64,000 nucleotides of DNA from Escherichia coli (GTDB taxonomy: Bacteria; Pseudomonadota; Gammaproteobacteria; Enterobacterales; Enterobacteriaceae), in assembly GCF_024502345.1 (NCBI RefSeq), contig NZ_JALDNN010000001.1. One strand, written 5' to 3'. The position numbers and the translations under genes were made by a program. Positions 1 through 24,403 of this stretch are shown here, in pieces. The notes under the pieces are model-generated. The model did not search any database. It had not been told where the DNA came from and saw only the letters and a list, made by a program, of their open reading frames with translations. Every line of letters starts with the position of its first letter. Position 1 is the stretch's first letter.

Positions 1-46
1 AATAAGTGTCCGGATCAGCGTGGAATCCGCACAAATCCTGCATCGG

Positions 47-487
47 TCAGCGTCCCACCTGTGCAGAGGCCCAGCGCACGATGTCCTGCGAGCCCATGGC
101 GCCTGCCTGGCGGGCGATCTCACGTCCGCCCTGGAACAGGGCGAGCGTCGGAATGCTGCGGATACCGAACTGCGCGGCCAGGTGGGGCTCAGCCTCGGTG
201 TTCACCTTTGCCAGCCTGATCCCGGGTTCGAGCTGGCGCGCGGCTTGTTGAAACTGCGGCGCCATCATCTTGCACGGCCCGCACCAGGGCGCCCAGAAAT
301 CGACCAGCAGCGGCAGATCGCTGCGCTCCACGTGGCGCGAGAACGTCGCCGTCGTCAACTCGATGGGCTCGCCGGTGAACAAGGGCTGCTGGCAGCGGCC
401 GCAGTTGGAACGATCCGCGAGCTTGGCGGCCGGCACGCTGTTGATGGACTGGCAATGTGGGCAGACGATGTGGAGTTCATTTTTCAT
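47..487 (-). CDS. trx: Thioredoxin (TrxC-like, N-terminal CxxC...CxxC zinc-finger extension)
   Basis: WCGPC active-site motif; N-terminal CPHC...CGRC pair; 146 aa. Confidence 0.85.
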   Translation of the reverse strand: MKNELHIVCPHCQSINSVPAAKLADRSNCGRCQQPLFTGEPIELTTATFSRHVERSDLPLLVDFWAPWCGPCKMMAPQFQQAARQLEPGIRLAKVNTEAEPHLAAQFGIRSIPTLALFQGGREIARQAGAMGSQDIVRWASAQVGR

Positions 488-1628
488 GGTTCGCTTGCTT
501 GGACTGCGGTGAGGTTGCCTCGCTTCGGATCACCGACATCGCCGACCAATTTACGCCTTTGATCCAATCGTTCCCGTCTTCGCTCACGCCGGCATCTTCC
601 ACGTGAGCCGCAATGAAGGCTTCGGCTTGAATGAGCCCCGCTCTGACAGCATCTATCTTATTAGGCATCCGCAGGATTTCAGCAGCGCAGCCTGCATCCA
701 GCCCATCCACCCGGATAAGCAGAAAAATGCGGCGCCACAAGTGCGGCATACCCTTCATCAGGTCGAATGCAAATGCGAATTCGCTCGATCTGTCACCAAT
801 TTCCTCCTGTTCGGCGATTGCTGCTGGGTCGGGAAGCCGACTATCAGCCATGACGTCGGCCAGGCTGAGTGCGTCATCAGGCTGATAAAACTCGTAGAAC
901 TCTTCCTCTACCATGGCCTCCGCCATGTCCTGCGCATCCGCTTCGACCGGCGCATCCAGCGAAACGGCCTCGCCATATTGCCGGCTGTTTGCCACTTCGC
1001 GATCAATGACGGCAAAAAGATGCTTCAAAAGATCGAGGTAAGCGGCATTTTCTTCTGGAACGGATGTCCATACCGATTCAGCCAGAGCAATCGCTTCGTC
1101 CACCACGTCGTGCAGCGTCGGATAATCGCGAGGCAAATCACCGGCGGCATGCAGATAAGCCAACTCGCGTTGCGCAACGGCCTCAACCTTCGGCAGCAGC
1201 GTCTCGATTATCCCGCGTGCTTGCTGGACGACAGAGGCAGGTTGAGTGTCGATCCGCGCCTTGAGCTCGCGCAAGCGTTCACGACGCGCCTTACGCTTGA
1301 TTTGATCCTGAGCGCTCAGCCGATCAAAGTGCTTCTTGGCCTGCCGGAACAACGCCTGCGCTAGCATGTGCGCGAGAGGCGTCAGATCGTTATGCGATGC
1401 AGTGACGCTGACGATTTTTTTGCCCGGCAAGTGCATGTGGCCACTGGCCGTTAAGCGAGATCCTTTTTTCGCGCGTTCGAGGACGATTTGAAGACGTACC
1501 GAATCTTCGGAGCGCTTTTCGATCAGCGGCTTGAGAGCGGGTTCAACCGCTTTTTCTACAGACATTCGCCAAGGTTCATGAAATTCTTTTTCGACGAGTC
1601 GATAGCTATATTGTATACGCATGCTCAA
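477..1628 (-). CDS. Hypothetical protein with N-terminal ribosome-hibernation-factor (HPF/RaiA)-like fold pattern and long acidic C-terminal extension
   Basis: 383-aa ORF; N-terminal about 100 aa follow the beta-alpha-beta-beta-beta-alpha pattern of HPF/YfiA by eye; acidic low-complexity middle region; no search run. Confidence 0.4.
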   Translation of the reverse strand: MSMRIQYSYRLVEKEFHEPWRMSVEKAVEPALKPLIEKRSEDSVRLQIVLERAKKGSRLTASGHMHLPGKKIVSVTASHNDLTPLAHMLAQALFRQAKKHFDRLSAQDQIKRKARRERLRELKARIDTQPASVVQQARGIIETLLPKVEAVAQRELAYLHAAGDLPRDYPTLHDVVDEAIALAESVWTSVPEENAAYLDLLKHLFAVIDREVANSRQYGEAVSLDAPVEADAQDMAEAMVEEEFYEFYQPDDALSLADVMADSRLPDPAAIAEQEEIGDRSSEFAFAFDLMKGMPHLWRRIFLLIRVDGLDAGCAAEILRMPNKIDAVRAGLIQAEAFIAAHVEDAGVSEDGNDWIKGVNWSAMSVIRSEATSPQSKQANHEK

Positions 1629-1720
1629 GTCCTTTAGGGTTGTCCGCCCAGGTGAGTGGACCCGGGTGATTGGATATGTTGATTTTCAAAGATGATCTTA
1701 CGGTTTGGTTTTTCACGCCC

Positions 1721-2332
1721 TTACCTCTGACGCGCTTTGCGCAAACGCCAACTAAGAAGCAAAAGAGTCATACCGAAGATCGCAGCATGGAAACCCAATA
1801 CCCAGCCCGCGGCCAGAAATGATTCGATCGGGCGGGTAAAAAACATCCATAGGATGATCGCACCGAGGAGCACGGAAAGCAGCCCGCTGAGGGCAAGCCA
1901 GATCTCGCCCTTGATTTCCCGGCGCAGACGAACGGCGGCGGATATCTCCAGCATACCGGTGAAAATTGCCCAGAATGCCACGCTTACCCACAAGAAATAG
2001 GCCAACGCCAAAGTGGCAGCCAGAGGGGCAACTACCACAACGACACCGGTGAGTATGCCGACGATGCCGCTGAACAACAGCCAGCCCCAGCGCTGCTTTT
2101 GCCGCATTTGCCGCACCGCTGCAACCAGGTTGAACGCACCATTGACCAAAGAAAATGCGCCGAACACTATCGTCATGGCGAACAAAGCCGAGTGTGGCAT
2201 CCAGAATGCGAGGACTGCAAAAATCAACGCGAATATGCCGCGCAGCGCAAACAACCACCAATTTTGGGTCAGTGAACACACGGCATCGGCAGGGTTATCC
2301 GCATTCGAATCGGCGATGGTATTTGCATTCAT
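1721..2332 (-). CDS. hdeD: HdeD-family (DUF308) inner-membrane acid-stress protein
   Basis: 203 aa, about six predicted hydrophobic helices, position between yfdX and trx as in LHR. Confidence 0.75.
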   Translation of the reverse strand: MNANTIADSNADNPADAVCSLTQNWWLFALRGIFALIFAVLAFWMPHSALFAMTIVFGAFSLVNGAFNLVAAVRQMRQKQRWGWLLFSGIVGILTGVVVVVAPLAATLALAYFLWVSVAFWAIFTGMLEISAAVRLRREIKGEIWLALSGLLSVLLGAIILWMFFTRPIESFLAAGWVLGFHAAIFGMTLLLLSWRLRKARQR

Positions 2333-2417
2333 GCGATATCTCCTTGATGGATCATGAGATCAGGAAAATCAAGCCTTCATCGCGAAGAGAGGGGCTATTC
2401 GCCCCTCTCTTGCGGTT

Positions 2418-3305
2418 TTAGAACAGCTTTGACAGTCTCGCCTTGATTTCATCGAGCCAGCCTTTTCCGCTCCCGCCTCCGGCCGTCTTTTCCTTGACTT
2501 TCTTGAGTTCAGAGTACAGGGGCTCAAAGTCCTTCTTTTTGCCATAGCCCAGCAGTTCTGCCATTTCCAACTGCTGCCGGGCTTCGTTTAACAAGTCCTG
2601 CAGGCGTTCACCGGACGCCTCGCTGCGCTGGCCATCTTCTGTCAAGGTCTCGGCGCGCTTGACGAGCAGTTTGGCGCGCAGGATGGGCAGCGGGATGACG
2701 CTGAGTGTCTCGACGAGCGTGCCGAGCGCCAACTGCAGCGCGGCCTTGGCCTCTTCGATCTTGCCCTGATCGATCAGCGGCACGACGGATTTCACGGCTG
2801 CCGGGTAAGTCGCCAGAGGGATGTTGGTGACCGCAATCACGATTTCGCTGGCCAGCAATGCCAACACGCGACGAGCGCGTTGCACCTCGCCATGTTTGAG
2901 GGCATCCAGCGCCTCGTCAGTCATCGCCTCAACGGTTTCCGTGTTGGCGAACAAGTCGTGCACGATGGTGCGCACATCAACGGGGGCCAGGGCGAGCGTG
3001 GGTTCGCGTGCAACGATCAGCTCCAGCTTTCCCGTCACTTCGGCCAGCGTTGCCAGTGCTCGCGCGGATTCTTTTTCGTCCAGGGCCGCCAGCGCTGATT
3101 TGGTCAGCGCCAAGGCCGAGACGGCCTCATCGAGGACTTGTTTACGTTTGTCTGCCGCTTGCGAGTCCGTTTCCTTCTGAACCTCAGGCTGTACCTCCGT
3201 GACGACTTCAGGCTTGGGCTCTGGTCTGGCAGGAAGGCTGCTTACCGCGGCCTGTTCGTTCGTGCCTTCGTTGATCGCGTTGGGATTCGATGTTTGCTCA
3301 TTCAT
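2418..3305 (-). CDS. YfdX-family protein (second copy)
   Basis: 295 aa; shares conserved blocks (LELIVAREP..LAPVDV, ASEIVIAVTNIPLATYPAA) with the adjacent paralog. Confidence 0.7.
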   Translation of the reverse strand: MNEQTSNPNAINEGTNEQAAVSSLPARPEPKPEVVTEVQPEVQKETDSQAADKRKQVLDEAVSALALTKSALAALDEKESARALATLAEVTGKLELIVAREPTLALAPVDVRTIVHDLFANTETVEAMTDEALDALKHGEVQRARRVLALLASEIVIAVTNIPLATYPAAVKSVVPLIDQGKIEEAKAALQLALGTLVETLSVIPLPILRAKLLVKRAETLTEDGQRSEASGERLQDLLNEARQQLEMAELLGYGKKKDFEPLYSELKKVKEKTAGGGSGKGWLDEIKARLSKLF

Positions 3306-3407
3306 GGTGATATGCCTCGTATGAGATAGTGAAAATAGGGGAATCTATTGGGGCCGACTGCGAATATCGCGAGACTGACCGATGGAGCAGTCGGCCCCTT
3401 CATCACC

Positions 3408-4337
3408 TCAAAACAGCTTTTGGATGCGCGTCTTCAACTCGTCGAACCATCCATTGCCGCTTTTGCCACCAGCCGACTTTTGCTCAATGGACTTCACCTG
3501 ATCGAAGATGGGTTTGAAGTCCTCCTTCTTGCCATAACCCAGGATTTGCGCCAGCTCGATCTCCGTGCGCACGGACGACAGCAAGGTGCTGAGCTCCTCG
3601 TTCTGCTTGGCATCGCGCTTGTCAGTCTCGGCCAGCTTTTCAGCTTTTGCCATCGCGGCTTCGGCCCGTAGCACGGGCAGAGGGAGTACAACTTGGGTGA
3701 CCACCAGCGTGTTCAGTGCTCGGGCGAGTTCCGCCTTGGCGTTGTCGATCTTGCCGCTGTCGATGAGCCGTGCGGCCGACTTGATCGCTGCCGGGTACGT
3801 TGCCATCGGCAGGTTGTCGGTTTCGATCACGATTTCGCTGGCAAGATTGGCAACAATGGGCCGTGCCTTTTGCACCTCGCCATCATCCAACAACTCCTGA
3901 GACAACTTGACCGCTTTCTTGACCGATTCCACGTCGGCGTGGATGTCATGGGTGATGACGCTTACATCGACGGGCGCCAAAGCAATTTTTGGCTCACGCG
4001 CCAATACCAGTTCCAGCTTTCCGCTGGCCAGTTCCAGCGCAGCGAGCGCCTCCTTGGTCTTCTTTGCATCAAGGAGGATCAATGCCTCATGGGTCTTGGC
4101 CAGCGCAGTGATTGCATCTTGGGCGAGTTCGGCGCGCTTCTTCGCGGCTTCCCGGGCGACCTTGTCATCTACCTGTGGCAGCGCCGCTTTGGATGCGGCA
4201 GAGGGTGCTGCAGCACCTGGGCTAGAACCTGCCGCCGATTGGGCCAGAGCCGGTCCGCTCAGTCCGACGACGACCGCCAGGGCAAGTGCGGAGAAGATGT
4301 ATTGTGGCTGTTTGATATTCATGATGTTGGACTCCAA
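3408..4337 (-). CDS. YfdX-family periplasmic protein (first copy), signal peptide
   Basis: 309 aa; N-terminal signal-peptide-like hydrophobic segment; paralog of 2418-3305. Confidence 0.7.
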   Translation of the reverse strand: MESNIMNIKQPQYIFSALALAVVVGLSGPALAQSAAGSSPGAAAPSAASKAALPQVDDKVAREAAKKRAELAQDAITALAKTHEALILLDAKKTKEALAALELASGKLELVLAREPKIALAPVDVSVITHDIHADVESVKKAVKLSQELLDDGEVQKARPIVANLASEIVIETDNLPMATYPAAIKSAARLIDSGKIDNAKAELARALNTLVVTQVVLPLPVLRAEAAMAKAEKLAETDKRDAKQNEELSTLLSSVRTEIELAQILGYGKKEDFKPIFDQVKSIEQKSAGGKSGNGWFDELKTRIQKLF

Positions 4338-4343
4338 TTGAAG

Positions 4344-4802
4344 TTAATTGACTGAAATTTCAATCTGTTTCGGTTTGGCTTGCTCGGCCTTGACAAGCCG
4401 CACTTCCAGCACGCCGTCTTTCATGGAAGCCGTCACCTTGGTCGGATCAACGTTGTCAGGCAAGACAAAGCTGCGCACAAAGCGGCCATACGCACGTTCG
4501 ATGCGGTGGAACTTCTTGCCCTGCTCCTCTTTTTCCAGTTTGCGCTCGCCGCTGATGGTGAGCACACCGTTTTCCGCGCTGACGCGCACGGCATCCTTGG
4601 GGACCTCCGGCAGATCCAGCTTGAGGAGGAATGCGTTCTCATCCTCGCTGATGTCCACCATTGGTGCCCAGTCCGCCGTGGTCATGGCTTCGTTGCCGGT
4701 ACGGGCGCCCTGTCGCTGGGGTGTCCGTCCCAACATCGTCGCCAGGCGGTTTTGCAATTCATCCAGTTCCCGGAAGGGGTCCCACGGAGTCAATGCAGAC
4801 AT
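4344..4802 (-). CDS. Small heat shock protein, Hsp20/alpha-crystallin family (sHsp-GI)
   Basis: Alpha-crystallin domain (ISEDENAFLLKLDLPEV...GVLTISGER...GVLEVRLVK); start taken at internal Met (track ORF extends to 4865). Confidence 0.8.
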   Translation of the reverse strand: MSALTPWDPFRELDELQNRLATMLGRTPQRQGARTGNEAMTTADWAPMVDISEDENAFLLKLDLPEVPKDAVRVSAENGVLTISGERKLEKEEQGKKFHRIERAYGRFVRSFVLPDNVDPTKVTASMKDGVLEVRLVKAEQAKPKQIEISVN

Positions 4803-4896
4803 ATCGGTTCTCCTTGAACAATGCCGGTGAATTGGATGACGCACCGAACAGAGCCGCCGGCTCACTCTGAATAGCGCCTATTACTTTTCGTTTCTA

Positions 4897-6231
4897 TCAA
4901 GAACAGGCCATGAGCAAGAATAGTCCATGAAGCAATAGCGCATGTCCCATCTCGTGATAGGCCACGGTTTCCCGCTCCTTCGGATTGAGCACACGGTTCT
5001 TCCTTTCCAGGCCGGCCACGATGCGCTCGATGGCGGCGGTGAAGTCTTGCAGCTCCACAGCCTGCGCCTTGCGCCGCGTCGCGTTCAGCGCTGCTTCGTT
5101 CACGAGATTGGCCAGATCAGCGCCGGAAAAGCCGGTGGTCAACGCCGCCACCTGTTCCAGATCTACACCGTGGGCCAGGGTGATCTTCTTGACATGGACC
5201 TTCAGGATATCCAGGCGACCTTTCTTGTCGGGACGGTCCACCAGCACCTGACGGTCGAAGCGACCGGCACGAAGCAAGGCCTGATCGAGGATTTCGGGGC
5301 GGTTGGTGGCGGCGAGGATGATCAGCCCGACCGAGCTGTCGAAGCCATCCATTTCGGTGAGCAACTGGTTCAGCGTCTGCTCACGCTCGTCGTGTCCGCC
5401 GGTCGGTCCTCCGACACCGCGTGCGCGGCCCAAAGCATCCAGCTCATCAATGAAGATGATCGCCGGCGCCTGCCCGCGCGCCTGCTCGAACAGGTCGCGC
5501 ACGCGCGCCGCACCCACGCCGACGAACATCTCGACGAACTCCGAGCCTGAGATGGAAAAGAACGGTACCCCGGCCTCGCCCGCCACGGCCTTGGCCAGCA
5601 GGGTCTTGCCCGTGCCCGGCGGGCCAACCAGCAACACACCTTTCGGGATGCGCGCGCCGAGGCGGCCGTAATCCTGCGGGTTCTTCAGGAAGTCGACGAT
5701 TTCGACCAGCTCGGCCTTGGCCTCATCGACACCCGCGACATCGGCAAAGGTGACGCCGGTGTTCTTCTCCATGAACACCTTGGCGCGGCTCTTGCCGATG
5801 CTCAGGAAGCCGCCCATGCCCTGCTTCTCGGCGAAGCGGCGGAACAGGAAGAACCAGACGCCGAAGAAGGCCACCGCCGGCAGAATCCAGGAGAGCACAT
5901 CACGTAGCCAGGTGCTTTCCACCACCCGCGCGTAGGGCACCTCGTACTTGGACAGCCGCTCGGCCAGGTCGGGTTCGACGCGAGTGGCCACGATGGTGGT
6001 CTTGCCCCGGCTGTCCGGCGATTTCAGGCGCCCGGTGACCGTGCGGTCCGACACCAGCACTTCGGCGACGCGCCCCTCGGCCAGCGCCTTCTCGAATTCG
6101 CTGTAGGGCACGGGCTCGACGGTCTTGGCCGCCTGCCAGTAGTTCTGCAGCGTCAGCAGCAACAGGCCGGCGACGATCCAGTAGCCAATGTTCCATTGAT
6201 CTTTCTTTTCCATGGGCAATGTTCCTCGCAA
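4897..6231 (-). CDS. FtsH-like AAA+ protein, C-terminally truncated (ends at the HEMGH zinc-binding motif; M41 peptidase domain absent)
   Basis: N-terminal TM segment plus AAA module (GPPGTGKT Walker A, DELD Walker B); ORF stops 12 codons after HEMGHA; only 31 bp to next gene; downstream bases AT-richer. Confidence 0.75.
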
Positions 6232-6240
6232 GTCGTGCCG

Positions 6241-7701
6241 CTAGAGAATGGGGGTGAACAGACGGGCCACCCCGTCGCGCAAGCGCATGGCCAGCGGGTG
6301 GGCGCGCAACGCCTTCGCCGATATCTCGCCCGACACATCACGAGCGGCATCAAAAAGGGATGACAGCCGCGTAGACAACGCGGTGTCGTACACCTCCACA
6401 TTGAACTCGAAGTTGAGGCGCAAACTGCGCGCATCCCAATTGGCCGAACCCAGGCAGCACCACGCTCCGTCTACCAGCATCAGCTTGCTGTGGTCGAACG
6501 GGCCAGGCCGTTCGAAGATGCGCACACCGTGCTCCAGCACCTGCCAGTAGTGGGCGCGCGCGGCCCATTGCACCGTGGGATGGTCGCCGTTTGCGGGCGT
6601 CAGCACGTCGATACGCACGCCGCGCAACGCGGCCGTGCTCAGCGCCGCGATCATCGGCTGATCGGGGACGAAGTAAGGTGTCCAGATGCGCACCGAATGC
6701 TTCGCCGCGCTCAAAGCGCCCATGAAGGTCCAGCGCATCCGGTCCAGGGCCTCGTCGGGACCGGCCTCGATGCCGCGCGCCCAACTGGTTCCCGGCTCAT
6801 CAGCCGTTACGGGCGGTTCGCCCCAGAAACCCTCGTTGAGCCGCTCGCCCGTGGTATCGCACCAATCATCGGTGAAGCTCCGCATCAGATGCTCCACCAC
6901 CGGCCCGCGCAGACGAAAGTGCAAATCGTGACAGGCCTGGTCCGGCGCATCGGGCCGCCAGTACGGGCTGAAGATGTTCAATCCGCCGGTGAAACCCGTC
7001 TCGCCATCGATCACCAGCAGCTTGCGGTGATTCCGCAGATGCGCGGCATGCAGGCGCGCGGGAATCAATGTCGGGTTGAACGTCGCCGCCGGAACGCCGG
7101 CGCGCTGCAAGGCGCGGTAGGCGCTGCGGGGCGTCCAGCGGGCATACACGTCGTCGATCAGCACCCGCACTTGCACGCCGCGCTCATGAGCCCGGCGCAG
7201 CGCATCGACGAACTGCGCCCCGATGCCTTGGCTGTCGAAGATGTACGAGGTCAAGGCGACGCTGTACCGCGCCGATTCGATGGCGGCGAGCATGGCCGGG
7301 TAGGCCTGCTCGCCATCGACAAGCGGCTCGATGCGGTTGCCGCCGGTCAGCGACTGGCCGGTGGCGCGTCCCACCAGGTGGGCCAGACCGGCAAGTGGCG
7401 GCGATACAGCCTCGGGTATCGTGGGCGAGAGATCCTGCCGAACAGCAGGATCTGCCCCCGGGAAGAGCCGCCGCGCCCGCCGCTGGTAACGGTTGATGCC
7501 GAACAGCCCATACAGCAGCGAACCGCCCAGCGGCAGCAAGGCGATCAGCAGTACCCACAGCGTGGCCGATCGAGGGTCACGCTTGTAGATGACCGCATGC
7601 CCCGCTGTGGGGATAGCGACCGCCAGCGACACGAGGGTGGCTGCCCATGTCAGCCCATTGGGGTCGGACACGACAGCCTCCCATCGCTCAAGATTCGCCA
7701 T
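6241..7701 (-). CDS. cls: Cardiolipin synthase-like phospholipase D family protein
   Basis: Two HxKxxxxD motifs (HRKLLVID, HSKLMLVD); N-terminal membrane helices; about 487 aa from internal Met (track ORF 6241..7884 overlaps clpK). Confidence 0.8.
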   Translation of the reverse strand: MANLERWEAVVSDPNGLTWAATLVSLAVAIPTAGHAVIYKRDPRSATLWVLLIALLPLGGSLLYGLFGINRYQRRARRLFPGADPAVRQDLSPTIPEAVSPPLAGLAHLVGRATGQSLTGGNRIEPLVDGEQAYPAMLAAIESARYSVALTSYIFDSQGIGAQFVDALRRAHERGVQVRVLIDDVYARWTPRSAYRALQRAGVPAATFNPTLIPARLHAAHLRNHRKLLVIDGETGFTGGLNIFSPYWRPDAPDQACHDLHFRLRGPVVEHLMRSFTDDWCDTTGERLNEGFWGEPPVTADEPGTSWARGIEAGPDEALDRMRWTFMGALSAAKHSVRIWTPYFVPDQPMIAALSTAALRGVRIDVLTPANGDHPTVQWAARAHYWQVLEHGVRIFERPGPFDHSKLMLVDGAWCCLGSANWDARSLRLNFEFNVEVYDTALSTRLSSLFDAARDVSGEISAKALRAHPLAMRLRDGVARLFTPIL

Positions 7702-10537
7702 CCGCTGACTTCTTCTTGCGCGCAGGCTTGCTCGCGTCGCCAGGCGGTGCCTCGGCCACGTCCGCGGCATCGGGCTTTTCAGGCTCAGCCGACTTCGCGG
7801 GTGGCTCCTGGCGCTCGAAGACCACCCGTTCGGCCTTGTCGTCCCAGCGGGCGTTGGCGTGATCACCCTTGCCGATACCGCCACCCAGCATCTCGCGCGC
7901 CAGCGCGGTTTCCAGCTCGCTGCGGATCAGCCGCTTGAGCTCACGCGCGCCGAACTCGGGCTTGTAGCCTTCCTCCGCGAAGTGGTCGATCAAGGTCTGA
8001 TCGAAGGTCAGCGTCACGCCCTGGCTGGCGGCGTTGCGGGCCACACGATCAAGCTGCAGGCCGACGATATGGCGGATTTCCTCCTTGCCCAGCGCATGGA
8101 AGACGATGATCTCGTCGATGCGGTTGATGAACTCGGGGCGGAAGTGTCCGCGCAGCACGTCCATCACCTCGGACTTGGTCTTCTCGTATTCCTCGCCGGC
8201 GGCGCCACCGGCCTTCAGCCGACGCTGGATGATGTCCGAGCCCAGGTTCGAGGTGGCGATGATGATGGTATTGGTGAAATCCACCACCCGGCCCTTGCCG
8301 TCGGTGAGCCGCCCGTCGTCGAACACCTGCAGCAGGATGTTGTAGACGTCGGGGTGCGCTTTTTCGATCTCATCGAGCAGCAACACGCTGTAGGGCTTGC
8401 GACGCACCTTCTCGGTGAGCTGGCCGCCCTCGTCATAGCCCACATAACCCGGAGGCGCGCCCACCAGGCGTGCCACGGCATGGCGTTCCCCGTACTCGGA
8501 CATGTCGATGCGCAGCAGCGCACCTTCATCGCCATAGATGGACTCGGCCAGCGCCTTGGCGAGCTCGGTCTTGCCCACGCCGGTCGGCCCAAGGAACAGG
8601 AAAGTCGCCACCGGCTTGTCGCCTTCGCGCAGGCCCGCGCGCGACAACCGCACGGCATCGGCCACCGCGCGCACCGCTTCGTCCTGGCCCACCAGGCGCT
8701 CATGCAGCCGCTGCTCCAGATGCAGCAGCTTCTCGCGTTCTTCCACCGTCAGCTCGTTGACCGGAATGCCGGTCAGGCGCGAGACGATCTGCGCGACATG
8801 CTCGGCCTTGACTTCGGCGCTGCCCGAGGCGCGCTCGCGTTCCCATTCCTCGACGAGCTGCTTGAGTTCAGTCTCCTTGGCCTCGATGCGCTTGCCCAGC
8901 TCGGCGGCCTTGTCGTACTGCTTGCGCGAGGCCATGTAGTCCTGCTCACGCCGCAACTGGTGCAGTTCGGACTCCAGCTCCTGCACCGCCACCGGGCGAG
9001 CCGTGGCCGACAGCTTCACGCGTGCGGCCGCCTGGTCAAGCAGGTCGATGGCCTTGTCAGGCAAAAAGCGCGCGGTGATGTAGCGGTCCGACAACTCGGC
9101 GGCGGCGATGATCGCATCCTCGGTGATGCTGACCTTGTGGTGCGCCTCGAAGGTGTCGCGCAGGCCGCGCAGGATCATCATGGTCTGCGCTACCGTCGGC
9201 TCGGGCACCATCACCGGCTGGAAACGACGCTCCAGCGCGGCGTCCTTCTCGATGTACTTCTGATACTCGTTGAGCGTGGTGGCGCCGATCAGGTTCAGTT
9301 CGCCGCGCGCCATCATCGGCTTGAACACGTTGGCCACGTCCAGCCCGCCTTCGCCGCCACCCTGGCCTGCACCGACGATGGTGTGCACTTCATCGATGAA
9401 GAGAATCATCTCGCCCTGGTGCTCGGTCACTTCCTTGAGCACCTTCTGCACGCGCTCCTCGAACTCGCCGCGATACTTGGCGCCTGCCACCATGGCGTTG
9501 ATGTTGAGCTCGACCAGACGCTTGTCGCGCAGCGTCTCGGGCACTTCACCGGCGACCATGCGCTGCGCCAGCCCTTCGACAATGGCGGTCTTGCCGACGC
9601 CGGGCTCACCGATCAACACCGGGTTGTTTTTCTTGCGCCGGGCCAGCACCTCGATGGTGGTCTCGATCTCCTGCGCACGGCCGATGACTGGATCGAGTTT
9701 GCCCTCGCGCGCCATCTTGGTGAGGTCGCGCGAGTATTTATCCAGCTCGGGCGTGTTGGTCGGCGTCTCGGCGCGGCCATCCTCGGCCCCTTTGCCGACC
9801 ACCTTGCTTACCTGCTGGCGCAGCGCTTGCGGCGTGAGGCCGTAACGGCGCAGCAGGTTGGCCGCCAAACCTTCGCCTTCCTCAGCGAGCCCGATCAGGA
9901 AATGCTCCGGCCCGACATAAGAGTGGCCGAGTTCGTTGGAGGCCACGAAAGCGCGGCTGAGCGCGTCCTTGACCCGGGGCGACACGCCGACTTCGCCCTC
10001 GAACGGCTTCTCGCCGCGCTTGGCTTCGGATTCGATCTGTCGCTTGAGGTCATCGACCTTGATCTTGAACTGTCCCAGGATGGTCTTCACCACGTCGCTG
10101 TCGGATAGCGCCAGCAGCAGGTGTTCGGTATCGACTTCGGCGCGCCCGAACTCTGCAGCGTGTCGGGCGGCCTCCTGCAATAGGGCCTCGGACTGTTCGC
10201 TGATACGGCTGGCGAGCCCACTGCCGCGACGGCGCGCAGTGCCCGTACCGGCCGGGGCGGGTTCGCCGAACGAGGCATCGACCACCTCGTCGGTATCGGC
10301 CGCCATGGACGGCGAATCGTCACCGATGCGGAAGAAGTCGCTGCCGAGGAAGTCTTCGAACAAGCCGCTGCGCGAGCCAAACAAGGCTTCCAGCGGCGAG
10401 ACGGTGCGCTTTTGCTGGCGCGCCAGTTGGCGATAGTGATCGTCACACAACAGCATGGTGCTGTGGCGACCATTGAGATTGGCTTCCACCCGCACCGTGG
10501 CGGGCTGGCCGCAGACCTGGCATTGTTTTCTGGCCAT
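7688..10537 (-). CDS. clpK: ClpK/ClpG-type Clp AAA+ disaggregase with N-terminal zinc-ribbon-like extension
   Basis: Two AAA modules (GEPGVGKT and GPTGVGKT Walker A), Clp-N region, CQVCGQ...CDDHY N-terminus; AAGGAG RBS 7 nt upstream of chosen ATG; about 949 aa. Confidence 0.9.
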
Positions 10538-19692: not shown

Positions 19693-20506
19693 TGCTCAGC
19701 TCCTGATGCATTTGATGAGAGTTGGCAACCAGGTCTTTCGGCTTCAGCTCCCGGTAAGGAGTGTCAAGATCGAAAAGGAAACAGTGCCGGGCCAGCAACT
19801 GGCGTAGCCAATAGAGCGCCTGACCGGCCTCCAGCTGGCCGGAGGTATCCAGTCCTTGGGCAATAGCGGTCAGCTTCCGGTCTGGGTGACGCTGAAACTC
19901 GAGCAGAAACAGCTGCTGGTAATGGGCGAGATCGTCCTGAGCGATGTCGCCTTCAGCATGGGCAGGATAGAGCCATTGGATATTGGCAAATGCCACCTTG
20001 GATACCTCGCGCTCCGTAACGATGACCCAGGGAATACCTTTTTCCTGCCAGTAGCGCCTTTCAAGCTCAAGCCTCTCGATAACTTCAGGCTTCTGCAGGT
20101 CGGTACTGTACTTGGCCTGAATCGCGATGCTCGGGCGCTGAGGATCTTCGAAATCCACCAGAAAGTCGCTGGTCAGTACCTGCGGGGTACCCTTGTAACA
20201 ACCGTGGGGCAGGCCAAGCTCCTCGGCGATGCGCACCGTATCTTCGACCCGCATCGGAAACTGTTCACGGATATCGGTGACATGGGGAGACCGATCCAAG
20301 GTCAGGAAGATGGCCAGTTCAAGATCGGATAGAAGATGGTGTAAACGCCGGGTCTTGCTGCCAGGCAGGCGGTGGGAGCGACCCAGCGAGGACACGTCCC
20401 TTGTGTAGATGAACGGCTTGTAGTCTGATCCCTGGCCTTGACCACGCCCGTCCTTGAGCCTTCTATCGATCTGGGCCTGGGTCAGCCCCTTGAATGTTCC
20501 AGACAT
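19679..20506 (-). CDS. tnsA: TnsA endonuclease
   Basis: 275 aa; blocks shared with Tn7 TnsA as I recall it (QIxRRxKxGRGQG, GRSHR, HHLLSDLELAxFL, DIREQFP, LELERRYWQ). Confidence 0.9.
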   Translation of the reverse strand: MSGTFKGLTQAQIDRRLKDGRGQGQGSDYKPFIYTRDVSSLGRSHRLPGSKTRRLHHLLSDLELAIFLTLDRSPHVTDIREQFPMRVEDTVRIAEELGLPHGCYKGTPQVLTSDFLVDFEDPQRPSIAIQAKYSTDLQKPEVIERLELERRYWQEKGIPWVIVTEREVSKVAFANIQWLYPAHAEGDIAQDDLAHYQQLFLLEFQRHPDRKLTAIAQGLDTSGQLEAGQALYWLRQLLARHCFLFDLDTPYRELKPKDLVANSHQMHQELSSVAR

Positions 20507-20565
20507 GAGAAAGCCTGCCCCCGCTGTGTCGATGACCTCAACATAGCGGATGCAGGCTCAGAATG

Positions 20566-20626
20566 AAACTTTATTTATACGGATGATACTTTATTTATAC
20601 GGATGAACCTTTATTTGCATCCCACA
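20566..20626. repeat. Tn7-like right-end terminal repeats (putative TnsB binding sites) ending in terminal 5'-TGTGGG on the complementary strand
   Basis: Three tandem about 20-bp repeats: ACTTTATTTATACGGATGA (x2) then CCTTTATTTGCATCCCACA; about 120 bp upstream of tnsA start. Confidence 0.75.
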
Positions 20627-20703
20627 CATTTTACTTAAGGCATAAGCGGTAGAGTTGAGTGATAACCCTTCCATAATTTCATTTTCTAACACACTAATTT
20701 AAT

Positions 20704-21069
20704 TTAGTGTGAATTTCCACTTTTAGTCATTATCGCTATCGCTTCATCGATAGTCGGTATTGTAAAGAGAGAATTCTCTCTACAATCCTTGCGAATAACC
20801 TTCCTGTTTTTTTGAACAGAAATATTTTCGCACCAGGCTAATGTCCCGGTGAAATGCTTTTCTTCCATCCTCATATCTAGAAAAGCAAGTCGATCATTAA
20901 GGGATTGCATATCTTCAGTTACAGTAGAGGGACCTGATTCTAACAGTTCCAGACGGCTTTCCACATCAGCAACCTTGCCTTTAACCTGTGAGACGTCTTC
21001 TGCTAACTTTTCATGTCTGTGGATAGTATCAGCAAGTGCTCGTGAGTTTTGGGCGAATATCTCAGCCAT
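20704..21069 (-). CDS. Hypothetical coiled-coil protein (low-GC module)
   Basis: 121-aa ORF, heptad-like charged/hydrophobic pattern; no recognisable motif. Confidence 0.35.
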   Translation of the reverse strand: MAEIFAQNSRALADTIHRHEKLAEDVSQVKGKVADVESRLELLESGPSTVTEDMQSLNDRLAFLDMRMEEKHFTGTLAWCENISVQKNRKVIRKDCRENSLFTIPTIDEAIAIMTKSGNSH

Positions 21070-21216
21070 TTGCGCTAAGGCAGATCCTTTCGCTTCTGGT
21101 GGAGGTGGGTATATATACCTAATGCTTAGTCAACGACAGTATGACCTCATGGAATAACCATTTTTGAAAGTGCTCACCAGCTGCGCTTCGGTCGCTCGAC
21201 ATGACTCAATACAAAC

Positions 21217-21420
21217 CTAGTTGGAGCTATAACTTTCGCCGTAGGAATTAATGACCATTATTTGGCCAGCATCAACAGGCTGGCCATCTAAAGTAACAAG
21301 TCGTTTAGTTGCACGCTCTGGAAAGATAATATCCTTTGACTGCCTATCTTCTTCAATGTCCTTTAGTACCTTAGCCAAGGAGGTTTTCAATGTTCCATGG
21401 GGCGCATACAAAGAGCACAC
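21217..21420 (-). CDS. Hypothetical small protein (possibly a gene fragment)
   Basis: 67-aa ORF only; low-GC context. Confidence 0.2.
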   Translation of the reverse strand: MCSLYAPHGTLKTSLAKVLKDIEEDRQSKDIIFPERATKRLVTLDGQPVDAGQIMVINSYGESYSSN

Positions 21421-21562
21421 GCCGTCAATGCTATTAATTCTGGTAAAGTCTAACTACTCCACCAGTTTATTGATGCTGTAACAGTTCTCCAGATCCAGTC
21501 CAAGTTTCATTTCGACTTCTTTTTCAAATCGTTCATTTCAAAAAACTGTGAATTAACACAGC

Positions 21563-23216
21563 TCACGCATACCTGCTTGAAAACTCGTCCATCGAATTAG
21601 ATACCGTAAAATTCACCTCATCACCCAGTGCTTCAAAATGTGCATAACCACATTTTATTTTGGCATTTTCCTCCGGACGTCGTTCCACCGAGAAAAGCGT
21701 GCTTTTGGTTTCGACAACGAAATAGAGCTTTTCTTTTCCGTCCTTTTCGATCAGCACCGCCCAGTCGGGGTTGTAACCGCCTAATGGGGTATCGATTTTG
21801 AACCAACTAGGGAGTTTGGCGTAAAGTTTGATATCCTCGTTTCGCTCGAAGGCCGAGGCGAATTCCAATTCGATATCAGAGTCGTAAACCACGTGGTCGA
21901 AGACGGACTTCGTCATACCAGCGGTAGTTGGCGACCTTGTCGATAAAAAACAGGCTCAGCACCTTAATGCCCTGTGGGCGCAGGCGCATTTCTTTATCGA
22001 GATGCTCTTCAATGGTTTTGCGGATCTGCAGGCGTTTAAATTCATCCGGATCAACTTCTCCCAAGGCCTGACCCAGTTTCAGAATATCGGGCTTACTGGT
22101 AAAGCTGATGTATTCATTGCCCTGTTCGCAGTAGATGTCATCAATAATGTAGCCGTCATATACATCGCGGCCACCGCTGTACCTGGCATCCAGCAAATCC
22201 GCTCCGCTGGTCACCGTGACTTCCTTGCGCTTAATGCTGCCATTCTTCAGGCGAGCATCAATTTCGATTTTGGCACTGATCGGGCTTTTTTTATTGTTCA
22301 CACTGACCAGCTTGATAAAGGCCTTATTGTGGCCGTCCTTAACCTCAATGCCTGCCACTTCAATCTGCTTAACCAGTTTTTGCTCGTAGGCATCAACTGA
22401 ATCAAGCTTGTAGAGCATATGGTGCTTTTCCACATGGGTAGCTGAATAACGCAGTGTACACATGGGATTAAGCGAGGCGATGGCCTCTTTACTCTTATCT
22501 GTGGTGTCAACACTCTGCGGCTCATCGACAATCACAATTGGGTTGGTTTGCTGGATAAATTCGATCGGCTTGGCACCGGTCATCCGGTCGTGTGCCCGGT
22601 GAATGATGTTGGCTTTGTTCTCTTGCTCCGGGTCGCTAAAGCTTTTCCGGAAGGCATCGATATTGATGACCATGATCTGAATGTCAGGGCTGGTCGCAAA
22701 GTTACGCACATCCGACAGCTTACTGGAATCGTAGGTGAAATAGTCGAAGGCAACGTTTTCGTACAGCTCTTTAAAATGAGTCGCCGTAATTTCCAGTGAC
22801 TTCTGCACTCCTTCTTTAATGGCGATGGACGGCACCACGATAATAAACTTGGTAAAGCCATAGAGCCGGTTCATTTCGAAAACTGTACGCAGGTAAACAT
22901 AGGTTTTACCCGTTCCGGTTTCCATTTCCACGGTTAAGTGAATGCCGTATTTCGAGTCAAATGACTCTGACGGCGCGAGGCCATTTTTCAGCTGTATTTT
23001 GCGGATATTGGCATGGATGTCTTCATCCAGCAGGCGTAGGCGGTTACCAATACCCAGGGTATCTTCCTGAATACCATGAAACAGCGAGCCTTCTTCCCAG
23101 GAATGCAGCGGTGCTACCGTAAAGTTGGTCTGGCAGATTTCCTGGCCGGCGAATACGCCCGTTACTGACTCAATCGCATCACGCTGATAGCCAAGGTGAT
23201 AGCTGTAACTCTTCAA
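21563..23216 (-). pseudogene. res: Type III restriction Res-like SF2 helicase-nuclease, disrupted (frameshift between helicase N-terminal part and C-terminal PD-(D/E)xK nuclease part; helicase domain 2 apparently missing)
   Basis: ORF 21876..23216 has YQRDAI, METGTGKT (Walker A), IVDEPQ (Walker B), SAT motif; ORF 21563..21916 in another frame has GYNPDW...FVVETK nuclease motif; frames overlap 21879-21955 around an A6/T6 tract at 21945-21950. Confidence 0.65.
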
Positions 23217-23700
23217 TGACCCACTTTGCTTGATCCGCTCTGTTTATGCGCTTGTCCGCCAGGCAGATAGCCAGTTGTTCTTTGTCGTGTTGTTTTTCGC
23301 GTACGTTTGAATCCGAATCGCCAGTGCCCTCTGTGCCTTTGTTTTCAGCGTGCACAAAGAAAATTACTAATGGGTAAGGTATCGCCCTGTTGATCAGCTG
23401 ACCAATTCGTTCTGCGCTTTTGGTATTGCTTAATTCCACGTGCAGAAAGGCCAGCTCACCATAGTCGCGCAGGTCGTCACTAAAAGGCGCGATATTGATG
23501 GTGCTGGGCTTTAGGGTGTAGAGCCAACGGATTTTATCAACATCGTCCTTCAGAGCCTTTTTGTCTTTAGCGTCCAGGTCGGCGTGCTCCTGAAACATCT
23601 TTTTGAACAGGGGCTTATTGAGCACACAGCTATTGGGCACGTTCAAGCCTTCCAGAAAGGCTTCGAATTGTGGCAAGCCTAACCTCATATCAGACATCAC
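23179..23700 (-). CDS. Hypothetical protein (possibly DUF4391-like), 38-bp overlap with res-like gene
   Basis: 173-aa ORF co-oriented and overlapping res start; DUF4391 assignment is from memory only. Confidence 0.35.
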   Translation of the reverse strand: MMSDMRLGLPQFEAFLEGLNVPNSCVLNKPLFKKMFQEHADLDAKDKKALKDDVDKIRWLYTLKPSTINIAPFSDDLRDYGELAFLHVELSNTKSAERIGQLINRAIPYPLVIFFVHAENKGTEGTGDSDSNVREKQHDKEQLAICLADKRINRADQAKWVIEELQLSPWLSA

Positions 23701-24403
23701 GCTCTCCTTGACCTTCTGTTCCCTGAGTAACGGCTGTCAATATCAGGTAGGACACCACCATAAAGTCTTCAATGCCCTGACTGGAGGTGGCGGTAAGTAC
23801 AGTACCGCCTTTGGCAAACAGGCTTTCAATGCCTTTTTCTTCGCTCTTCCCGGCAATGCTATCTACAGCGACAGCTAATAGGTGCTGAAAGTGGCTCATA
23901 TCACACCCGTGGCGTGTCATGCGGTTAACTTCGGTGATGGCGGGTTGATCGGGCACTTTGTGCTTAAAGGCTTCACGCTTGAGCAGATCGAGTATCTTTT
24001 TACTTTGGGTGAAGTTCAGCTCAACTACAGTGCTGCCTTCGGCATCAGCGGTCACGTAGATCAGGAAGTAAGGTGCCAGCGGGTAATTATCATCTACCTG
24101 AACCGCTTCTTTACCGCTGCGGATATTCTTCAGGCAGAAGATGACGCCGGGTTTGATGCCATCGGCGACCATATCTTCGTCAATGCTGACGGCGGCATAC
24201 AGGCCTAGCGGTGTTTGCTCCAGCGTTGCGAGACGGGCCTTATCGTTCATGTAGCCTGACAGATCCATGCGGAAGTCATTGAGGGTAAGGTCGGTAATGG
24301 ATACCGGATGGGGCGTGGAGGATATGGTAGCAACCATGATGCGCTGTCTGCCGGACCGCGCCACCAGCCCAGTAGCGACACAGTTGCACGGGAGGCTCTG
24401 CAC
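23690..24403 (-). pseudogene. Hypothetical ORF, probably the 3' portion of a 5'-truncated gene
   Basis: GTG-initiated 237-aa ORF; same frame stays open a further 72 codons upstream (to about 24619) without any ATG/GTG/TTG; upstream part is GC-rich unlike the body. Confidence 0.4.

What the first reader, a model, noticed from the sequence alone, without database searches (positions are those of the whole stretch)
477..1628. HPF/RaiA-like ribosome-hibernation domain fused to a long acidic tail inside the heat-resistance locus
The first about 100 residues (MRIQYSYRLVEKEF...VRLQIVLER...LTASGHMHLPGKKIVSVTASHNDLTPLAHMLAQALFRQAKKHFDRL) follow the secondary-structure and sequence pattern of HPF/YfiA ribosome-silencing factors, followed by about 280 residues rich in D/E. 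A translation-shutdown factor co-located with disaggregase and sHsps would be a coherent stress module, but this is pattern recognition without a search.
Basis: inference. Interest (0 to 1): 0.45.

Follow-up and report, generated by a model that had tools for sequence, protein, structure and literature searches.

The report
Ribosome-hibernation domain fused to sigma-factor module
The uncharacterised gene "orf11" of the E. coli heat-resistance island encodes an N-terminal domain shaped like a ribosome-silencing factor joined to a divergent RNA-polymerase sigma-factor-like module, not to an acidic tail. I found this combination in no paper, and it may link the state of the ribosome to transcription during heat stress.

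Summary
The ORF is real. It lies on the minus strand at 477-1622 (ATG start, 381 aa), is under purifying selection, and is orf11 of the LHR/tLST island, between hdeD-GI and trx-GI.

The family has at least 246 clusters at 50% identity, nearly all with this architecture. It sits in heat-shock gene clusters, sometimes beside baeRF-1 release-factor-like genes or relA, and often behind sigma32-type promoters.

My best reading is a heat-stress regulator that couples ribosome docking to RNA polymerase binding. That mechanism is inferred, not shown. Published deletion of orf11 did not reduce heat or chlorine resistance. I call it a new variant of known kinds, of moderate to high interest.

The parts
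477..1622 (-). CDS of orf11 (381 aa + stop; ATG start).
   Evidence: ORF list. RefSeq CDS WP_001222629.1 in the identical E. coli G3/10 locus. Homologue N-termini align at this Met. dN/dS 0.24-0.26.
1630..1633 (-). Shine-Dalgarno-like AGGA, 8-11 nt upstream of the ATG
   Evidence: Read directly from the sequence.
1323..1622 (-). HPF/RaiA-like domain, aa 1-100 (strand 2-8, helix 12-37, strands 43-50, 57-65 and 69-77, helix from 80). Conserved LPGKK hairpin and an L-R-x-x-x-H-x-x-R-L motif in helix 2.
1239..1322 (-). Basic connector helix, aa 101-128 (KRKARRERLRELK; net +6). It continues HPF helix 2 and is the most constrained segment.
   Evidence: AF2 shows one continuous helix 80-125. R110 is invariant and R113 is invariant in A1. 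dN/dS 0.08-0.12. Charge medians.
981..1238 (-). Sigma2-like domain, aa 129-214, with a region-2.2-like DVVDEA motif (D175 >=90% conserved) and a region-2.4-like I-D-x-E-V-x-x-x-R motif
828..980 (-). Acidic sigma2-sigma4 linker, aa 215-265 (net -14), with the conserved motif AEAMVEEEFYEFYQPDD (P248 and D249 >=90% conserved)
   Evidence: Conservation. dN/dS 0.14-0.22. AF2 confidence is low to moderate, with a short helix 230-238 in the deeper model. It aligns with the RpoE linker.
588..827 (-). Sigma4-like helix-turn-helix domain, aa 266-345, with LPxxWRR (R297 invariant; P293 and W296 >=90%)
480..587 (-). Poorly conserved, low-confidence C-terminal tail, aa 346-381. Its last codons overlap the trx-GI start.
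   Evidence: pLDDT 43-63. dN/dS 0.65-0.72. Present only in the close clade.
47..487 (-). trx-GI (thioredoxin with an N-terminal CxxC...CxxC motif). Its start overlaps the orf11 stop by 11 nt, consistent with translational coupling.
1721..2332 (-). hdeD-GI, the upstream neighbour on the same strand. No sigma70-type promoter-like site was found in window 1-5000, which includes the 98-nt spacer. The terminator-like sites at 1769-1856 lie inside hdeD-GI rather than in the spacer, and the count did not exceed shuffles.

Best explanation
orf11 encodes a two-module stress regulator.

SHOWN: residues 1-100 are a homologue of the HPF/RaiA ribosome-binding fold. A conserved, strongly basic helix (101-128) connects it to a divergent ECF-type sigma module made of sigma2, a conserved acidic linker and sigma4. 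All modules are under purifying selection. The architecture is fixed across a large family that lives in heat-shock and proteostasis gene clusters. In several lineages the gene sits next to ribosome-linked genes (baeRF-1 family 10, relA-mazG) and behind sigma32-type promoters.

INFERRED mechanism: the protein is made with the other heat-stress genes. The HPF-like domain and the basic helix dock on vacant 30S/70S ribosomes at the decoding-site cleft, as HPF and RaiA do. The acidic sigma module engages RNA polymerase core through its region-2.2-like DVVDEA helix, its linker and its sigma4 LPxxWRR element. Ribosome occupancy would then control whether the sigma module is free. Alternatively, polymerase would be held at idle ribosomes. 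Either way, translation arrest is coupled to a change in transcription.

The LHR clade, including this window, is the most degenerate on the sigma side. It may act more as a competitor or tether than as a promoter-specific sigma factor. It is an accessory part of the island, not the factor that confers heat resistance.

For: Family size: 246 clusters at 50% identity have E<=1e-3, and most are 340-390 aa matching end to end.

Sigma side is ancestrally a real ECF: stand-alone relatives with the same YQPDE linker and LPxxWRR pass the curated TIGR02937 cut-off at 48-72 bits. The fused far member P0146 scores 41.8 bits.

HPF side: fused far members hit TIGR00741 yfiA at E 9e-8 to 3e-5.

Candidate RNAP-contact motifs are the best conserved sigma-side positions: D175, P293, W296 and R297.

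Ribosome link by neighbourhood: a baeRF family-10 gene is adjacent in Tibeticola, Hydrogenophaga, Gaiellaceae, an alphaproteobacterial MAG and Chloroflexota. relA-mazG lies immediately upstream in L033. A baeRF-1/HPF association was reported independently (PMC6514570).

Stress link: 27 genome loci and further metagenome loci place the gene among sHsp, YfdX, HdeD, ClpK/G, FtsH, HtpX, DnaJ and Trx genes. Sigma32-type promoters lie directly upstream in 5 of 23 loci, against 0.32 expected.

Selection: dN/dS is 0.24-0.26 overall. The basic helix (0.08-0.12) and the acidic linker (0.14-0.22) are tightest. The N-terminal basic charge and C-terminal acidic charge are anticorrelated, rho -0.33, without correction for phylogeny.
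Against: No tool here tests binding to ribosomes or to RNA polymerase.

The window protein itself fails every single-sequence test: Pfam E=0.2, no NCBIfam hit, no PDB sequence hit. No fused member reaches the curated HPF or ECF cut-offs.

Sigma70_r2 is detected in only 1 of 99 members.

The positions equivalent to the RpoE -35-contacting residues (identified from my recollection of the RpoE sigma4/-35 DNA structure, PDB 2H27) are variable and often acidic or neutral. Sigma2 and sigma4 carry net negative charge, medians -4 and -5. This argues against ordinary promoter recognition.

The LHR clade has lost the region-2.3 Trp that is common in the far clade.

A rigid 45-residue helix continuing HPF helix 2 might not fit the 70S intersubunit space (inference).

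The interdomain arrangement is inconsistent among AFDB models of relatives, TM 0.35-0.78.

The orf11 deletion caused no loss of heat or chlorine resistance (PMC8407380). In one E. coli LHR variant the gene is split by an insertion.

I found no ECF-type (RpoE-like) promoter in the island.
Confidence: 0.4

Rival explanations
1. The first reader's model, a plain ribosome-hibernation or ribosome-protection factor. The HPF-like domain silences or stabilises ribosomes during extreme heat. The C-terminal part only modulates this, for example by dimerising like the C-terminal domain of long HPFs or by acting as an acidic shield, and has no role at RNA polymerase.
Against: The C-terminal part is a complete, selected ECF-sigma fold with conserved region-2.2-like and 4.1-like motifs, not a dimerisation domain. 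Stand-alone sigma relatives with the same linker exist. No long-HPF C-terminal-domain family appears in the Pfam family tables shown. The orf11 deletion has no heat phenotype.
Confidence: 0.2
2. A self-regulated ECF sigma factor. The HPF-like fold and basic helix have been co-opted as a cis-acting anti-sigma or sensor domain and no longer touch the ribosome. On a heat signal the sigma module is released and transcribes neighbouring stress genes.
For: ECF homology and stand-alone ECF relatives. No conserved anti-sigma gene lies next to it, as in ECF groups regulated by fused extensions (PMC7826278). The sigma2/sigma4 arrangement in the model superposes best on anti-sigma-bound ECFs: EcfG-NepR, SigW-RsiW and CnrH-CnrY. 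The basic N-half and the acidic sigma half have complementary charge. Expression of the P. aeruginosa island genes is sigma32-independent (PMC7685784).
Against: The DNA-contact positions of sigma4 are not conserved and both domains are acidic. I found no ECF-like promoter. Neighbouring genes often carry sigma32-type promoters instead. The orf11 deletion does not lower heat resistance, which a dedicated island sigma factor should do. AF2 may favour the closed sigma conformation for any ECF.
Confidence: 0.2
3. A sigma-factor mimic (anti-anti-sigma) in the manner of PhyR. The sigma-like module acts as a decoy that titrates an anti-sigma factor, for example RseA/MucA-type given the closest similarity to RpoE/AlgU. 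The N-terminal domain gates this.
For: Pfam PhyR_sigma-like hits in 31 of 99 members, and NCBIfam PhyR hits for LHR-clade members. The DNA-contact residues are degenerate. The closest sigma sequences are RpoE and AlgU. The island carries envelope-stress genes such as DegP, HtpX and YfdX.
Against: PhyR hits are weaker than ECF sigma4 hits and are expected cross-matches. There is no receiver domain and no NepR-like partner gene. The family occurs in Actinobacteria and Chloroflexota, which I would not expect to have RseA/MucA (my own knowledge; loci). The conserved long acidic linker fits RNAP-cleft insertion better than a decoy role (inference).
Confidence: 0.1
4. In enterobacterial LHRs the gene is a dispensable passenger or decaying remnant with no current function.
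For: The orf11 deletion has no phenotype. The gene is split by an mscS-plus-hypothetical insertion in one E. coli LHR variant. It is the most divergent clade on the sigma side.
Against: dN/dS is 0.24-0.26, with very tight constraint on the helix and the linker. The gene is full-length in 144 of the 151 E. coli genomes that carry it. It is conserved in synteny and translationally coupled to trx-GI.
Confidence: 0.07

Closest known systems
HPF / RaiA (YfiA) / plastid pY ribosome hibernation factors (Pfam PF02482 Ribosomal_S30AE; NCBIfam TIGR00741)
   Different: The protein alone is not significant against PF02482 (E=0.2). No family member reaches the curated TIGR00741 cut-off. No long-HPF C-terminal-domain family appears in the Pfam tables shown. 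Helix 2 runs on into a 45-residue basic helix that leads to a sigma module. Ribosome binding is untested.
ECF (group 4) sigma-70 family factors, closest RpoE (E. coli) and AlgU (P. aeruginosa)
   Same: It has a two-domain sigma2 + sigma4 fold. It carries a region-2.2-like DVVDEA motif (RpoE DVVQEA), a region-4.1-like LPxxWRR motif (RpoE LPEDLR) and an acidic linker aligned with the RpoE linker. Stand-alone relatives pass TIGR02937.
   Different: It has an N-terminal HPF domain and basic helix. The linker is about twice as long and has its own conserved YQPDD motif. Both sigma domains carry net negative charge. The -35-contact positions are not conserved. Sigma70_r2 is undetectable in 98 of 99 members. 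There is no adjacent anti-sigma gene and no recognisable ECF promoter. An HPF-type extension is not among the ECF extensions described in PMC7826278.
PhyR anti-anti-sigma factors (sigma-like domain fused to a receiver domain)
   Same: A degenerate ECF-like module is fused to a separate alpha/beta input domain. Pfam PF22233 and NCBIfam NF006623 give weak hits.
   Different: The domain order is reversed, and the input domain has the HPF fold rather than a receiver. There is no NepR/EcfG partner. The long conserved acidic linker is absent from PhyR, as far as the alignments show.
orf11 of LHR/tLST1 (E. coli AW1.7 lineage), called ORF10 in the P. aeruginosa clone C TLPQC island
   Same: It occupies the same position between hdeD-GI and trx-GI. 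The common E. coli tLST form is about 78% identical at nucleotide level and about 71% identical at protein level, if P0008 is that form as I infer. The window allele is 100% identical to that of E. coli G3/10.
   Different: None in kind. The literature lists it as a hypothetical protein that is <30% identical to anything of known function (PMC8290217, PMC7685784). The domain assignment made here is not in those papers.

Membership tests
HPF/RaiA (PF02482, TIGR00741) | beta-alpha-beta-beta-beta-alpha fold of about 95 residues | tested here: met
HPF/RaiA (PF02482, TIGR00741) | Significant match of this protein itself to the family profile | tested here: not met
   PF02482 i-Evalue 0.19-0.2, 12.9 bits. 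No NCBIfam hit at E<=1. No HPF in the single-sequence PDB search.
HPF/RaiA (PF02482, TIGR00741) | Homology shown at family level (profile against known HPFs) | tested here: met
   A2 profile against PDB: HPF 1.2e-9, T. thermophilus protein Y 7.9e-9, E. coli HPF 3.2e-7, YfiA 8.1e-7. PF02482 at E<=1e-3 in 54 of 99 members. All TIGR00741 scores stay below the 40.9-bit cut-off (24-32 bits).
HPF/RaiA (PF02482, TIGR00741) | Known architectures: stand-alone short form, or long form with a C-terminal dimerisation domain | tested here: not met
   The C-terminal part is sigma2-linker-sigma4. No long-HPF C-terminal-domain family appears in the Pfam tables shown.
HPF/RaiA (PF02482, TIGR00741) | Binds the 30S decoding region and inactivates or dimerises ribosomes | not testable with these tools
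   Only indirect evidence: baeRF-1 and relA neighbours.
ECF sigma factors (TIGR02937; PF04542 + PF08281) | Sigma2 and sigma4 domains with no sigma3 or sigma1.1 | tested here: met
ECF sigma factors (TIGR02937; PF04542 + PF08281) | Curated or profile thresholds for both regions | tested here: not met
   The window protein has no hit. The best fused member scores 41.8 against a 42.9-bit cut-off. Sigma70_r2 is found in 1 of 99 members and Sigma70_r4_2 in 52 of 99. Stand-alone relatives do pass.
ECF sigma factors (TIGR02937; PF04542 + PF08281) | Conserved promoter-contact residues in the sigma4 recognition helix and in sigma2 regions 2.3/2.4 | tested here: inconclusive
   The equivalents of RpoE R171/S172/R173/F175/R176/R178 are Q/R/E, R/A/Q, W, E/A/D, Q/H and R/E/D. 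Sigma4 has a median charge of -5. The region-2.3 Trp is lost in the LHR clade. The list of RpoE contact residues is recalled from the literature, not verified here.
ECF sigma factors (TIGR02937; PF04542 + PF08281) | Cognate anti-sigma factor or autoregulated ECF promoter in the neighbourhood | tested here: not met
   No conserved partner across the loci. One RpoE-type motif match in the whole window, outside the island, against 2 expected. Upstream promoters look sigma32-type.
ECF sigma factors (TIGR02937; PF04542 + PF08281) | Binds RNAP core and directs promoter-specific initiation | not testable with these tools
   -
PhyR-type anti-anti-sigma factors | Sigma-like domain fused to a phosphorylatable receiver domain, with a NepR/EcfG partner switch | tested here: not met
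   No receiver-domain family appears in the Pfam tables shown. No NepR-like neighbour. Only weak PF22233 and NF006623 matches to the sigma4 part.
LHR/tLST orf11 | Position between hdeD-GI and trx-GI in the heat-resistance island, and sequence identity to annotated island copies | tested here: met
   100% identical to E. coli G3/10 with the full island annotated around it. The same synteny holds in Pseudomonas, Pantoea, Rhodocyclaceae, Rubrivivax and Tepidimonas loci.

The most novel reading that the evidence does not exclude
The ribosome itself acts as the anti-sigma factor or sensor. The HPF-like domain parks an ECF-type sigma module on vacant 30S/70S ribosomes, or is released from them. The pool of idle ribosomes after heat shock would then directly set the availability of a polymerase-binding subunit. 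This would be a physical ribosome-to-RNAP signalling link that uses no small molecule, possibly working with a baeRF-1 A-site factor in the ancestral system.
Probability: 0.2. Interest if true: 0.85.

Novelty: new variant of a known kind. Interest (0 to 1): 0.6.

Why it matters
The LHR/tLST island makes E. coli, Klebsiella, Cronobacter and Pseudomonas survive pasteurisation-like heat and chlorine. Its orf11 has been carried as "hypothetical" through all the functional papers I could read.

This work shows that orf11 belongs to a large, widespread family that fuses a ribosome-hibernation fold to an ECF sigma module. That gives the gene a concrete hypothesis that can be tested.

If the two halves do what their relatives do, the protein would be a direct protein bridge between ribosome state and RNA polymerase. 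It would also be a new way of regulating an ECF-type sigma factor, through a fused ribosome-binding domain instead of an anti-sigma protein.

The result also refines the reported baeRF-1/HPF gene pairing: the "HPF" partner in the five baeRF-adjacent loci found here is this fusion.

Finally, database names for the family are currently split between "sigma factor", "RaiA/HPF" and "uncharacterized". A consistent annotation would be useful in itself.

Tried and rejected
Single-sequence searches gave nothing significant: Pfam, NCBIfam and PDB phmmer. Conclusions had to come from family profiles.

Promoters. An RpoE/AlgU-type promoter pattern (GAACYT-N14-18-TCNRA) had 1 match in the window, outside the island, against 2 expected. 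A strict sigma32 pattern had 0 matches in the window. The sigma70 promoter and terminator scan of 1-5000 found no promoter, and terminator-like sites did not exceed shuffles. I therefore assign no promoter to orf11 in the window and assume it is co-transcribed with hdeD-GI.

My first strict regex for sigma32 sites upstream of homologues missed sites visible by eye. I replaced it with a mismatch-tolerant scan with shuffles.

Interdomain packing. I hoped to use the AF2 model to ask whether the basic helix sits between sigma2 and sigma4 like an anti-sigma helix. The tools return no coordinates or PAE. AFDB models of relatives superpose poorly as whole chains. I make no claim about packing.

The charge correlation between the two halves is weak (rho -0.33) and not corrected for phylogeny. 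I treat it as a hint only.

Greedy ORF picking in high-GC loci gave spurious antisense ORFs. I did not use it for neighbourhood claims.

The 223-aa protein inserted into orf11 in another LHR variant has no Pfam match.

Mercer et al. 2017 (PMC5626989), the main functional study of the LHR, is not held. Literature searches for an HPF-ECF fusion found nothing, but subscription journals are not covered.

Considered and rejected: that the acidic region is a low-complexity tail (it is folded and conserved), and that the ORF is a spurious antisense frame (dN/dS, synteny and homologues argue against it).
Full report
1. WHAT IS AT THE COORDINATES

The likely start is the ATG at 1622, giving 381 aa. RefSeq annotates that start in the 100% identical locus of E. 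coli G3/10 (WP_001222629.1, "hypothetical protein"). An AGGA lies 8-11 nt upstream. Every homologue starts at the equivalent Met.

The gene sits between hdeD-GI (1721-2332) and trx-GI (47-487) on the same strand. Its stop overlaps the trx-GI start by 11 nt. [quoted passage not shown]

Residues 1-100 have net charge +7 and residues 101-128 have +6. Residues 129-381 are 18.6% D/E with net charge -27.

The gene is under purifying selection. dN/dS is 0.24-0.26 against the clade that is 70% identical.

2. THE N-TERMINAL DOMAIN

On its own the protein gives PF02482 as its best Pfam hit, but at E=0.2. It gives nothing in NCBIfam or in a sequence search of the PDB. Evidence from relatives settles the question.

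- Family size. 60 close homologues were found. An exhaustive search found 246 clusters at 50% identity with E<=1e-3, mostly 340-390 aa and matching end to end.
- Profiles. A 32-sequence profile (A1) hits HPF from Thermus and E. coli at about 1e-4. A 99-sequence profile (A2) hits HPF/RaiA chains at 1.2e-9 to 8e-7.
- Per-member scans. PF02482 is significant in 54 of 99 members. Distant members hit NCBIfam TIGR00741 (yfiA) at 9e-8 to 3e-5, all below the curated cut-off.
- Signature. hhalign to E. coli HPF aligns the helix-2 signature, LFRQAKKHFDRL against LARQLTKHKDKL.

3. THE REST IS NOT A TAIL

The same profiles hit ECF sigma factors more strongly than HPF. With A2, E. coli RpoE scores 1.8e-15 (15.5 bits over sigma2 region 2.2-2.4 plus 42.6 bits over sigma4). 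AlgU scores 3.9e-15 in one stretch spanning sigma2 to sigma4. hhalign of A1 to RpoE covers RpoE 29-181.

The anatomy is as follows:
- 1-100: HPF-like domain.
- 101-128: basic helix continuing HPF helix 2 (KRKARRERLRELK; R110 invariant; dN/dS 0.08-0.12).
- 129-214: sigma2-like domain with a nearly invariant DVVDEA motif (RpoE has DVVQEA).
- 215-265: acidic linker with the conserved motif AEAMVEEEFYEFYQPDD (P248 and D249 >=90%; dN/dS 0.14-0.22).
- 266-345: sigma4-like domain with LPxxWRR (R297 invariant).
- 346-381: a poorly conserved tail.

PGAP had already called the C-terminal fragment of a disrupted allele "RNA polymerase sigma factor". IMG named one homologue "RaiA / sigma24". UniProt names for AFDB relatives are split between sigma factor, HPF/RaiA and uncharacterised.

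4. IS THE SIGMA MODULE A WORKING SIGMA?

Evidence for:
- Relatives of 250-290 aa lack the HPF domain but keep the YQPDE linker and LPxxWRR. They pass the curated TIGR02937 ECF cut-off at 48-72 bits against 42.9.
- The fused distant member P0146 scores 41.8 bits. The module therefore derives from true ECF sigmas.
- Its best-conserved positions coincide with regions that contact RNAP core in sigma factors. This last point rests on established knowledge of region 2.2 and region 4.1; I did not test it.

Evidence against:
- Pfam Sigma70_r2 is detectable in only 1 of 99 members.
- Sigma2 and sigma4 carry net negative charge, medians -4 and -5.
- The positions equivalent to the RpoE -35-contact residues are variable and often acidic.
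- The LHR clade has lost the region-2.3 Trp seen in distant members.
- No anti-sigma gene and no ECF-type promoter accompany the gene.

My conclusion is that polymerase binding is plausible and ordinary promoter recognition is doubtful, especially for the window's clade.

5. CONTEXT

Among 27 loci from species-representative genomes, the gene is nearly always embedded, co-directionally, in LHR-like clusters. Neighbours include sHsp20, ClpK/G, YfdX, HdeD, PLD, FtsH, Trx, KefB, PsiE, HtpX and DegP. The hosts are Gamma- and Betaproteobacteria, a Gaiellaceae actinobacterium and a Chloroflexota MAG. Metagenome relatives at 26-37% identity sit in sHsp-sHsp-YfdX-X, sHsp(x3)-YfdX-X-HtpX and X-DnaJ-MerR-CorA-FtsH arrangements.

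Two neighbour types point at the ribosome.
- A baeRF-1 gene (bacterial eRF1-like; Pfam family 10/5/2) lies directly adjacent in five lineages. Burroughs and Aravind independently reported a persistent baeRF-1/HPF neighbourhood and proposed joint action on the ribosome. They single out family 10 as possibly catalytic (PMC6514570). Their text does not mention a sigma fusion.
- In one core-genome context the gene follows relA-mazG.

Where the gene heads a transcription unit, a sigma32-type promoter (TTGAAA-N14-CCCCAT-like) lies upstream. This holds in 5 of 23 loci, against 0.32 expected. Neighbouring sHsp genes show the same motif.

In the window itself I found no promoter or terminator between hdeD-GI and orf11.

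6. WHAT IS KNOWN EXPERIMENTALLY

The tLST reviews list orf11 (ORF10 in P. aeruginosa TLPQC) as hypothetical and <30% identical to anything of known function (PMC8290217, PMC7685784). [quoted passage not shown]

Single deletions in MG1655 lacZ::LHR showed that 7 of 13 genes are needed for heat or chlorine resistance. orf11 was not among them, and its deletion did not alter membrane-lipid oxidation (PMC8407380). That strain keeps hpf, raiA and rmf, and only killing was scored.

In E. coli the gene is present in 151 of 5426 complete genomes and is full-length in 144. One variant has it split by an insertion.

The ECF reclassification paper describes no ribosome-related extension. Full-text searches for an HPF-ECF fusion found nothing.

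7. MECHANISM

Shown: the two-module architecture, its conservation and selection, and its association with heat-shock and ribosome-linked genes.

Inferred, and my preferred reading (confidence 0.4): the HPF-like domain and basic helix dock on vacant ribosomes, while the acidic sigma module binds RNA polymerase core. Ribosome idleness after proteotoxic stress would then be coupled to a change in transcription, either by releasing or sequestering the sigma module or by tethering polymerase. The LHR clade may act more as a competitor or tether than as a promoter-specific sigma.

Rivals:
- A plain hibernation or protection factor (0.2).
- A cis-autoinhibited ECF sigma whose HPF fold no longer touches ribosomes (0.2).
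- A PhyR-like decoy for an anti-sigma factor (0.1).
- A dispensable remnant (0.07).

None can be separated without binding and transcription experiments.

8. VERDICT

The finding is a new variant of known kinds. It is an ECF-type sigma module with a fused HPF domain, and equally an HPF domain with a new C-terminal partner. The family is large, and I found no study of it in the literature I could search. Interest 0.6.

Noticed in passing
L002 (E. coli 1218KP, NZ_CM173878.1) 1459-4563; also hits H5-H10: In another E. coli LHR variant, orf11 is split into N- and C-terminal pseudogene pieces. The insertion carries a mechanosensitive-channel gene and a 223-aa hypothetical gene. PGAP labels the C-terminal piece 'RNA polymerase sigma factor'. 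The 223-aa protein has no Pfam match.
   Followed up: partly
L003 6750-7964; L004 9156-10598; L019, L024, L025: A baeRF-1 (bacterial eRF1-like, Pfam family 10/5/2) gene lies directly next to distant orf11 homologues in five lineages. The window's island has no such gene. The 'HPF' partner of baeRF-1 reported by Burroughs and Aravind is this sigma-fused family in these five loci.
   Followed up: partly
L033 1113-5347: A 32%-identical family member lies immediately after relA and mazG in a core-genome context (pyrG, eno, ftsB, ispD, ispF, truD downstream). A sigma70-type TTGACA...TATAAT promoter sits in the spacer.
   Followed up: no
L021, L023, L027, L037, L039 upstream of the family gene; L035 and L038 upstream of sHsp genes: Sigma32 (RpoH)-type promoters, (C/G)TTGAAA-N14-CCC(A/G)CAT, precede the family gene or its sHsp neighbours. 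This suggests membership of the heat-shock regulon in several proteobacteria.
   Followed up: partly
P0102, P0131, P0154, P0170, P0180, P0185, P0190, P0202, P0203: Stand-alone proteins of 250-290 aa lack the HPF domain but keep the YQPDE acidic linker and LPxxWRR. Most pass the curated ECF sigma cut-off (P0102, at 26.7 bits, does not). They look like the parent lineage of the sigma module. Their contexts were not examined.
   Followed up: partly
window 47-487 (-): Trx-GI carries an N-terminal CPHC...CGRC motif, which looks like a Trx2-type zinc ribbon. It is translationally coupled to orf11 by an ATGAAAAATGA overlap. One database protein (P0029) fuses the orf11 C-terminus to this thioredoxin, probably because of a frameshift or a gene-calling artefact.
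   Followed up: no
window 4897-6231 (-): By coordinate mapping from the annotated, identical G3/10 locus, the FtsH-like gene of the island is truncated in this island variant (annotated there as a pseudogene missing its C-terminus). The PLD, ClpK and sHsp genes appear intact.
   Followed up: no
L017 (Kocuria varians NBRC 15358) and L007 (Spirochaetia MAG): A short Kocuria contig carries a YfdX-YfdX-HdeD-orf11 fragment. The first 25 residues of its product are nearly identical (one difference) to those of a Lysobacteraceae locus (L016). A Spirochaetia MAG contig carries an orf11 that is 100% identical to the window. These are either very recent transfers or assembly or binning contamination.
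   Followed up: no
window 5001-10000 versus 20001-24000: G+C is 0.65-0.68 across the clpK/PLD/FtsH part of the island and falls to 0.45-0.50 around 20-24 kb. The window therefore spans compositionally distinct, probably foreign, segments.
   Followed up: no
aa 101-128 and 215-265 of orf11 (window 1239-1322 and 828-980): The two most constrained segments are the basic connector helix and the acidic linker. AlphaFold gives the linker low confidence. Their charges are opposite and weakly anticorrelated across the family. Whether they contact each other, rRNA or the RNAP cleft is unexplained.
   Followed up: partly
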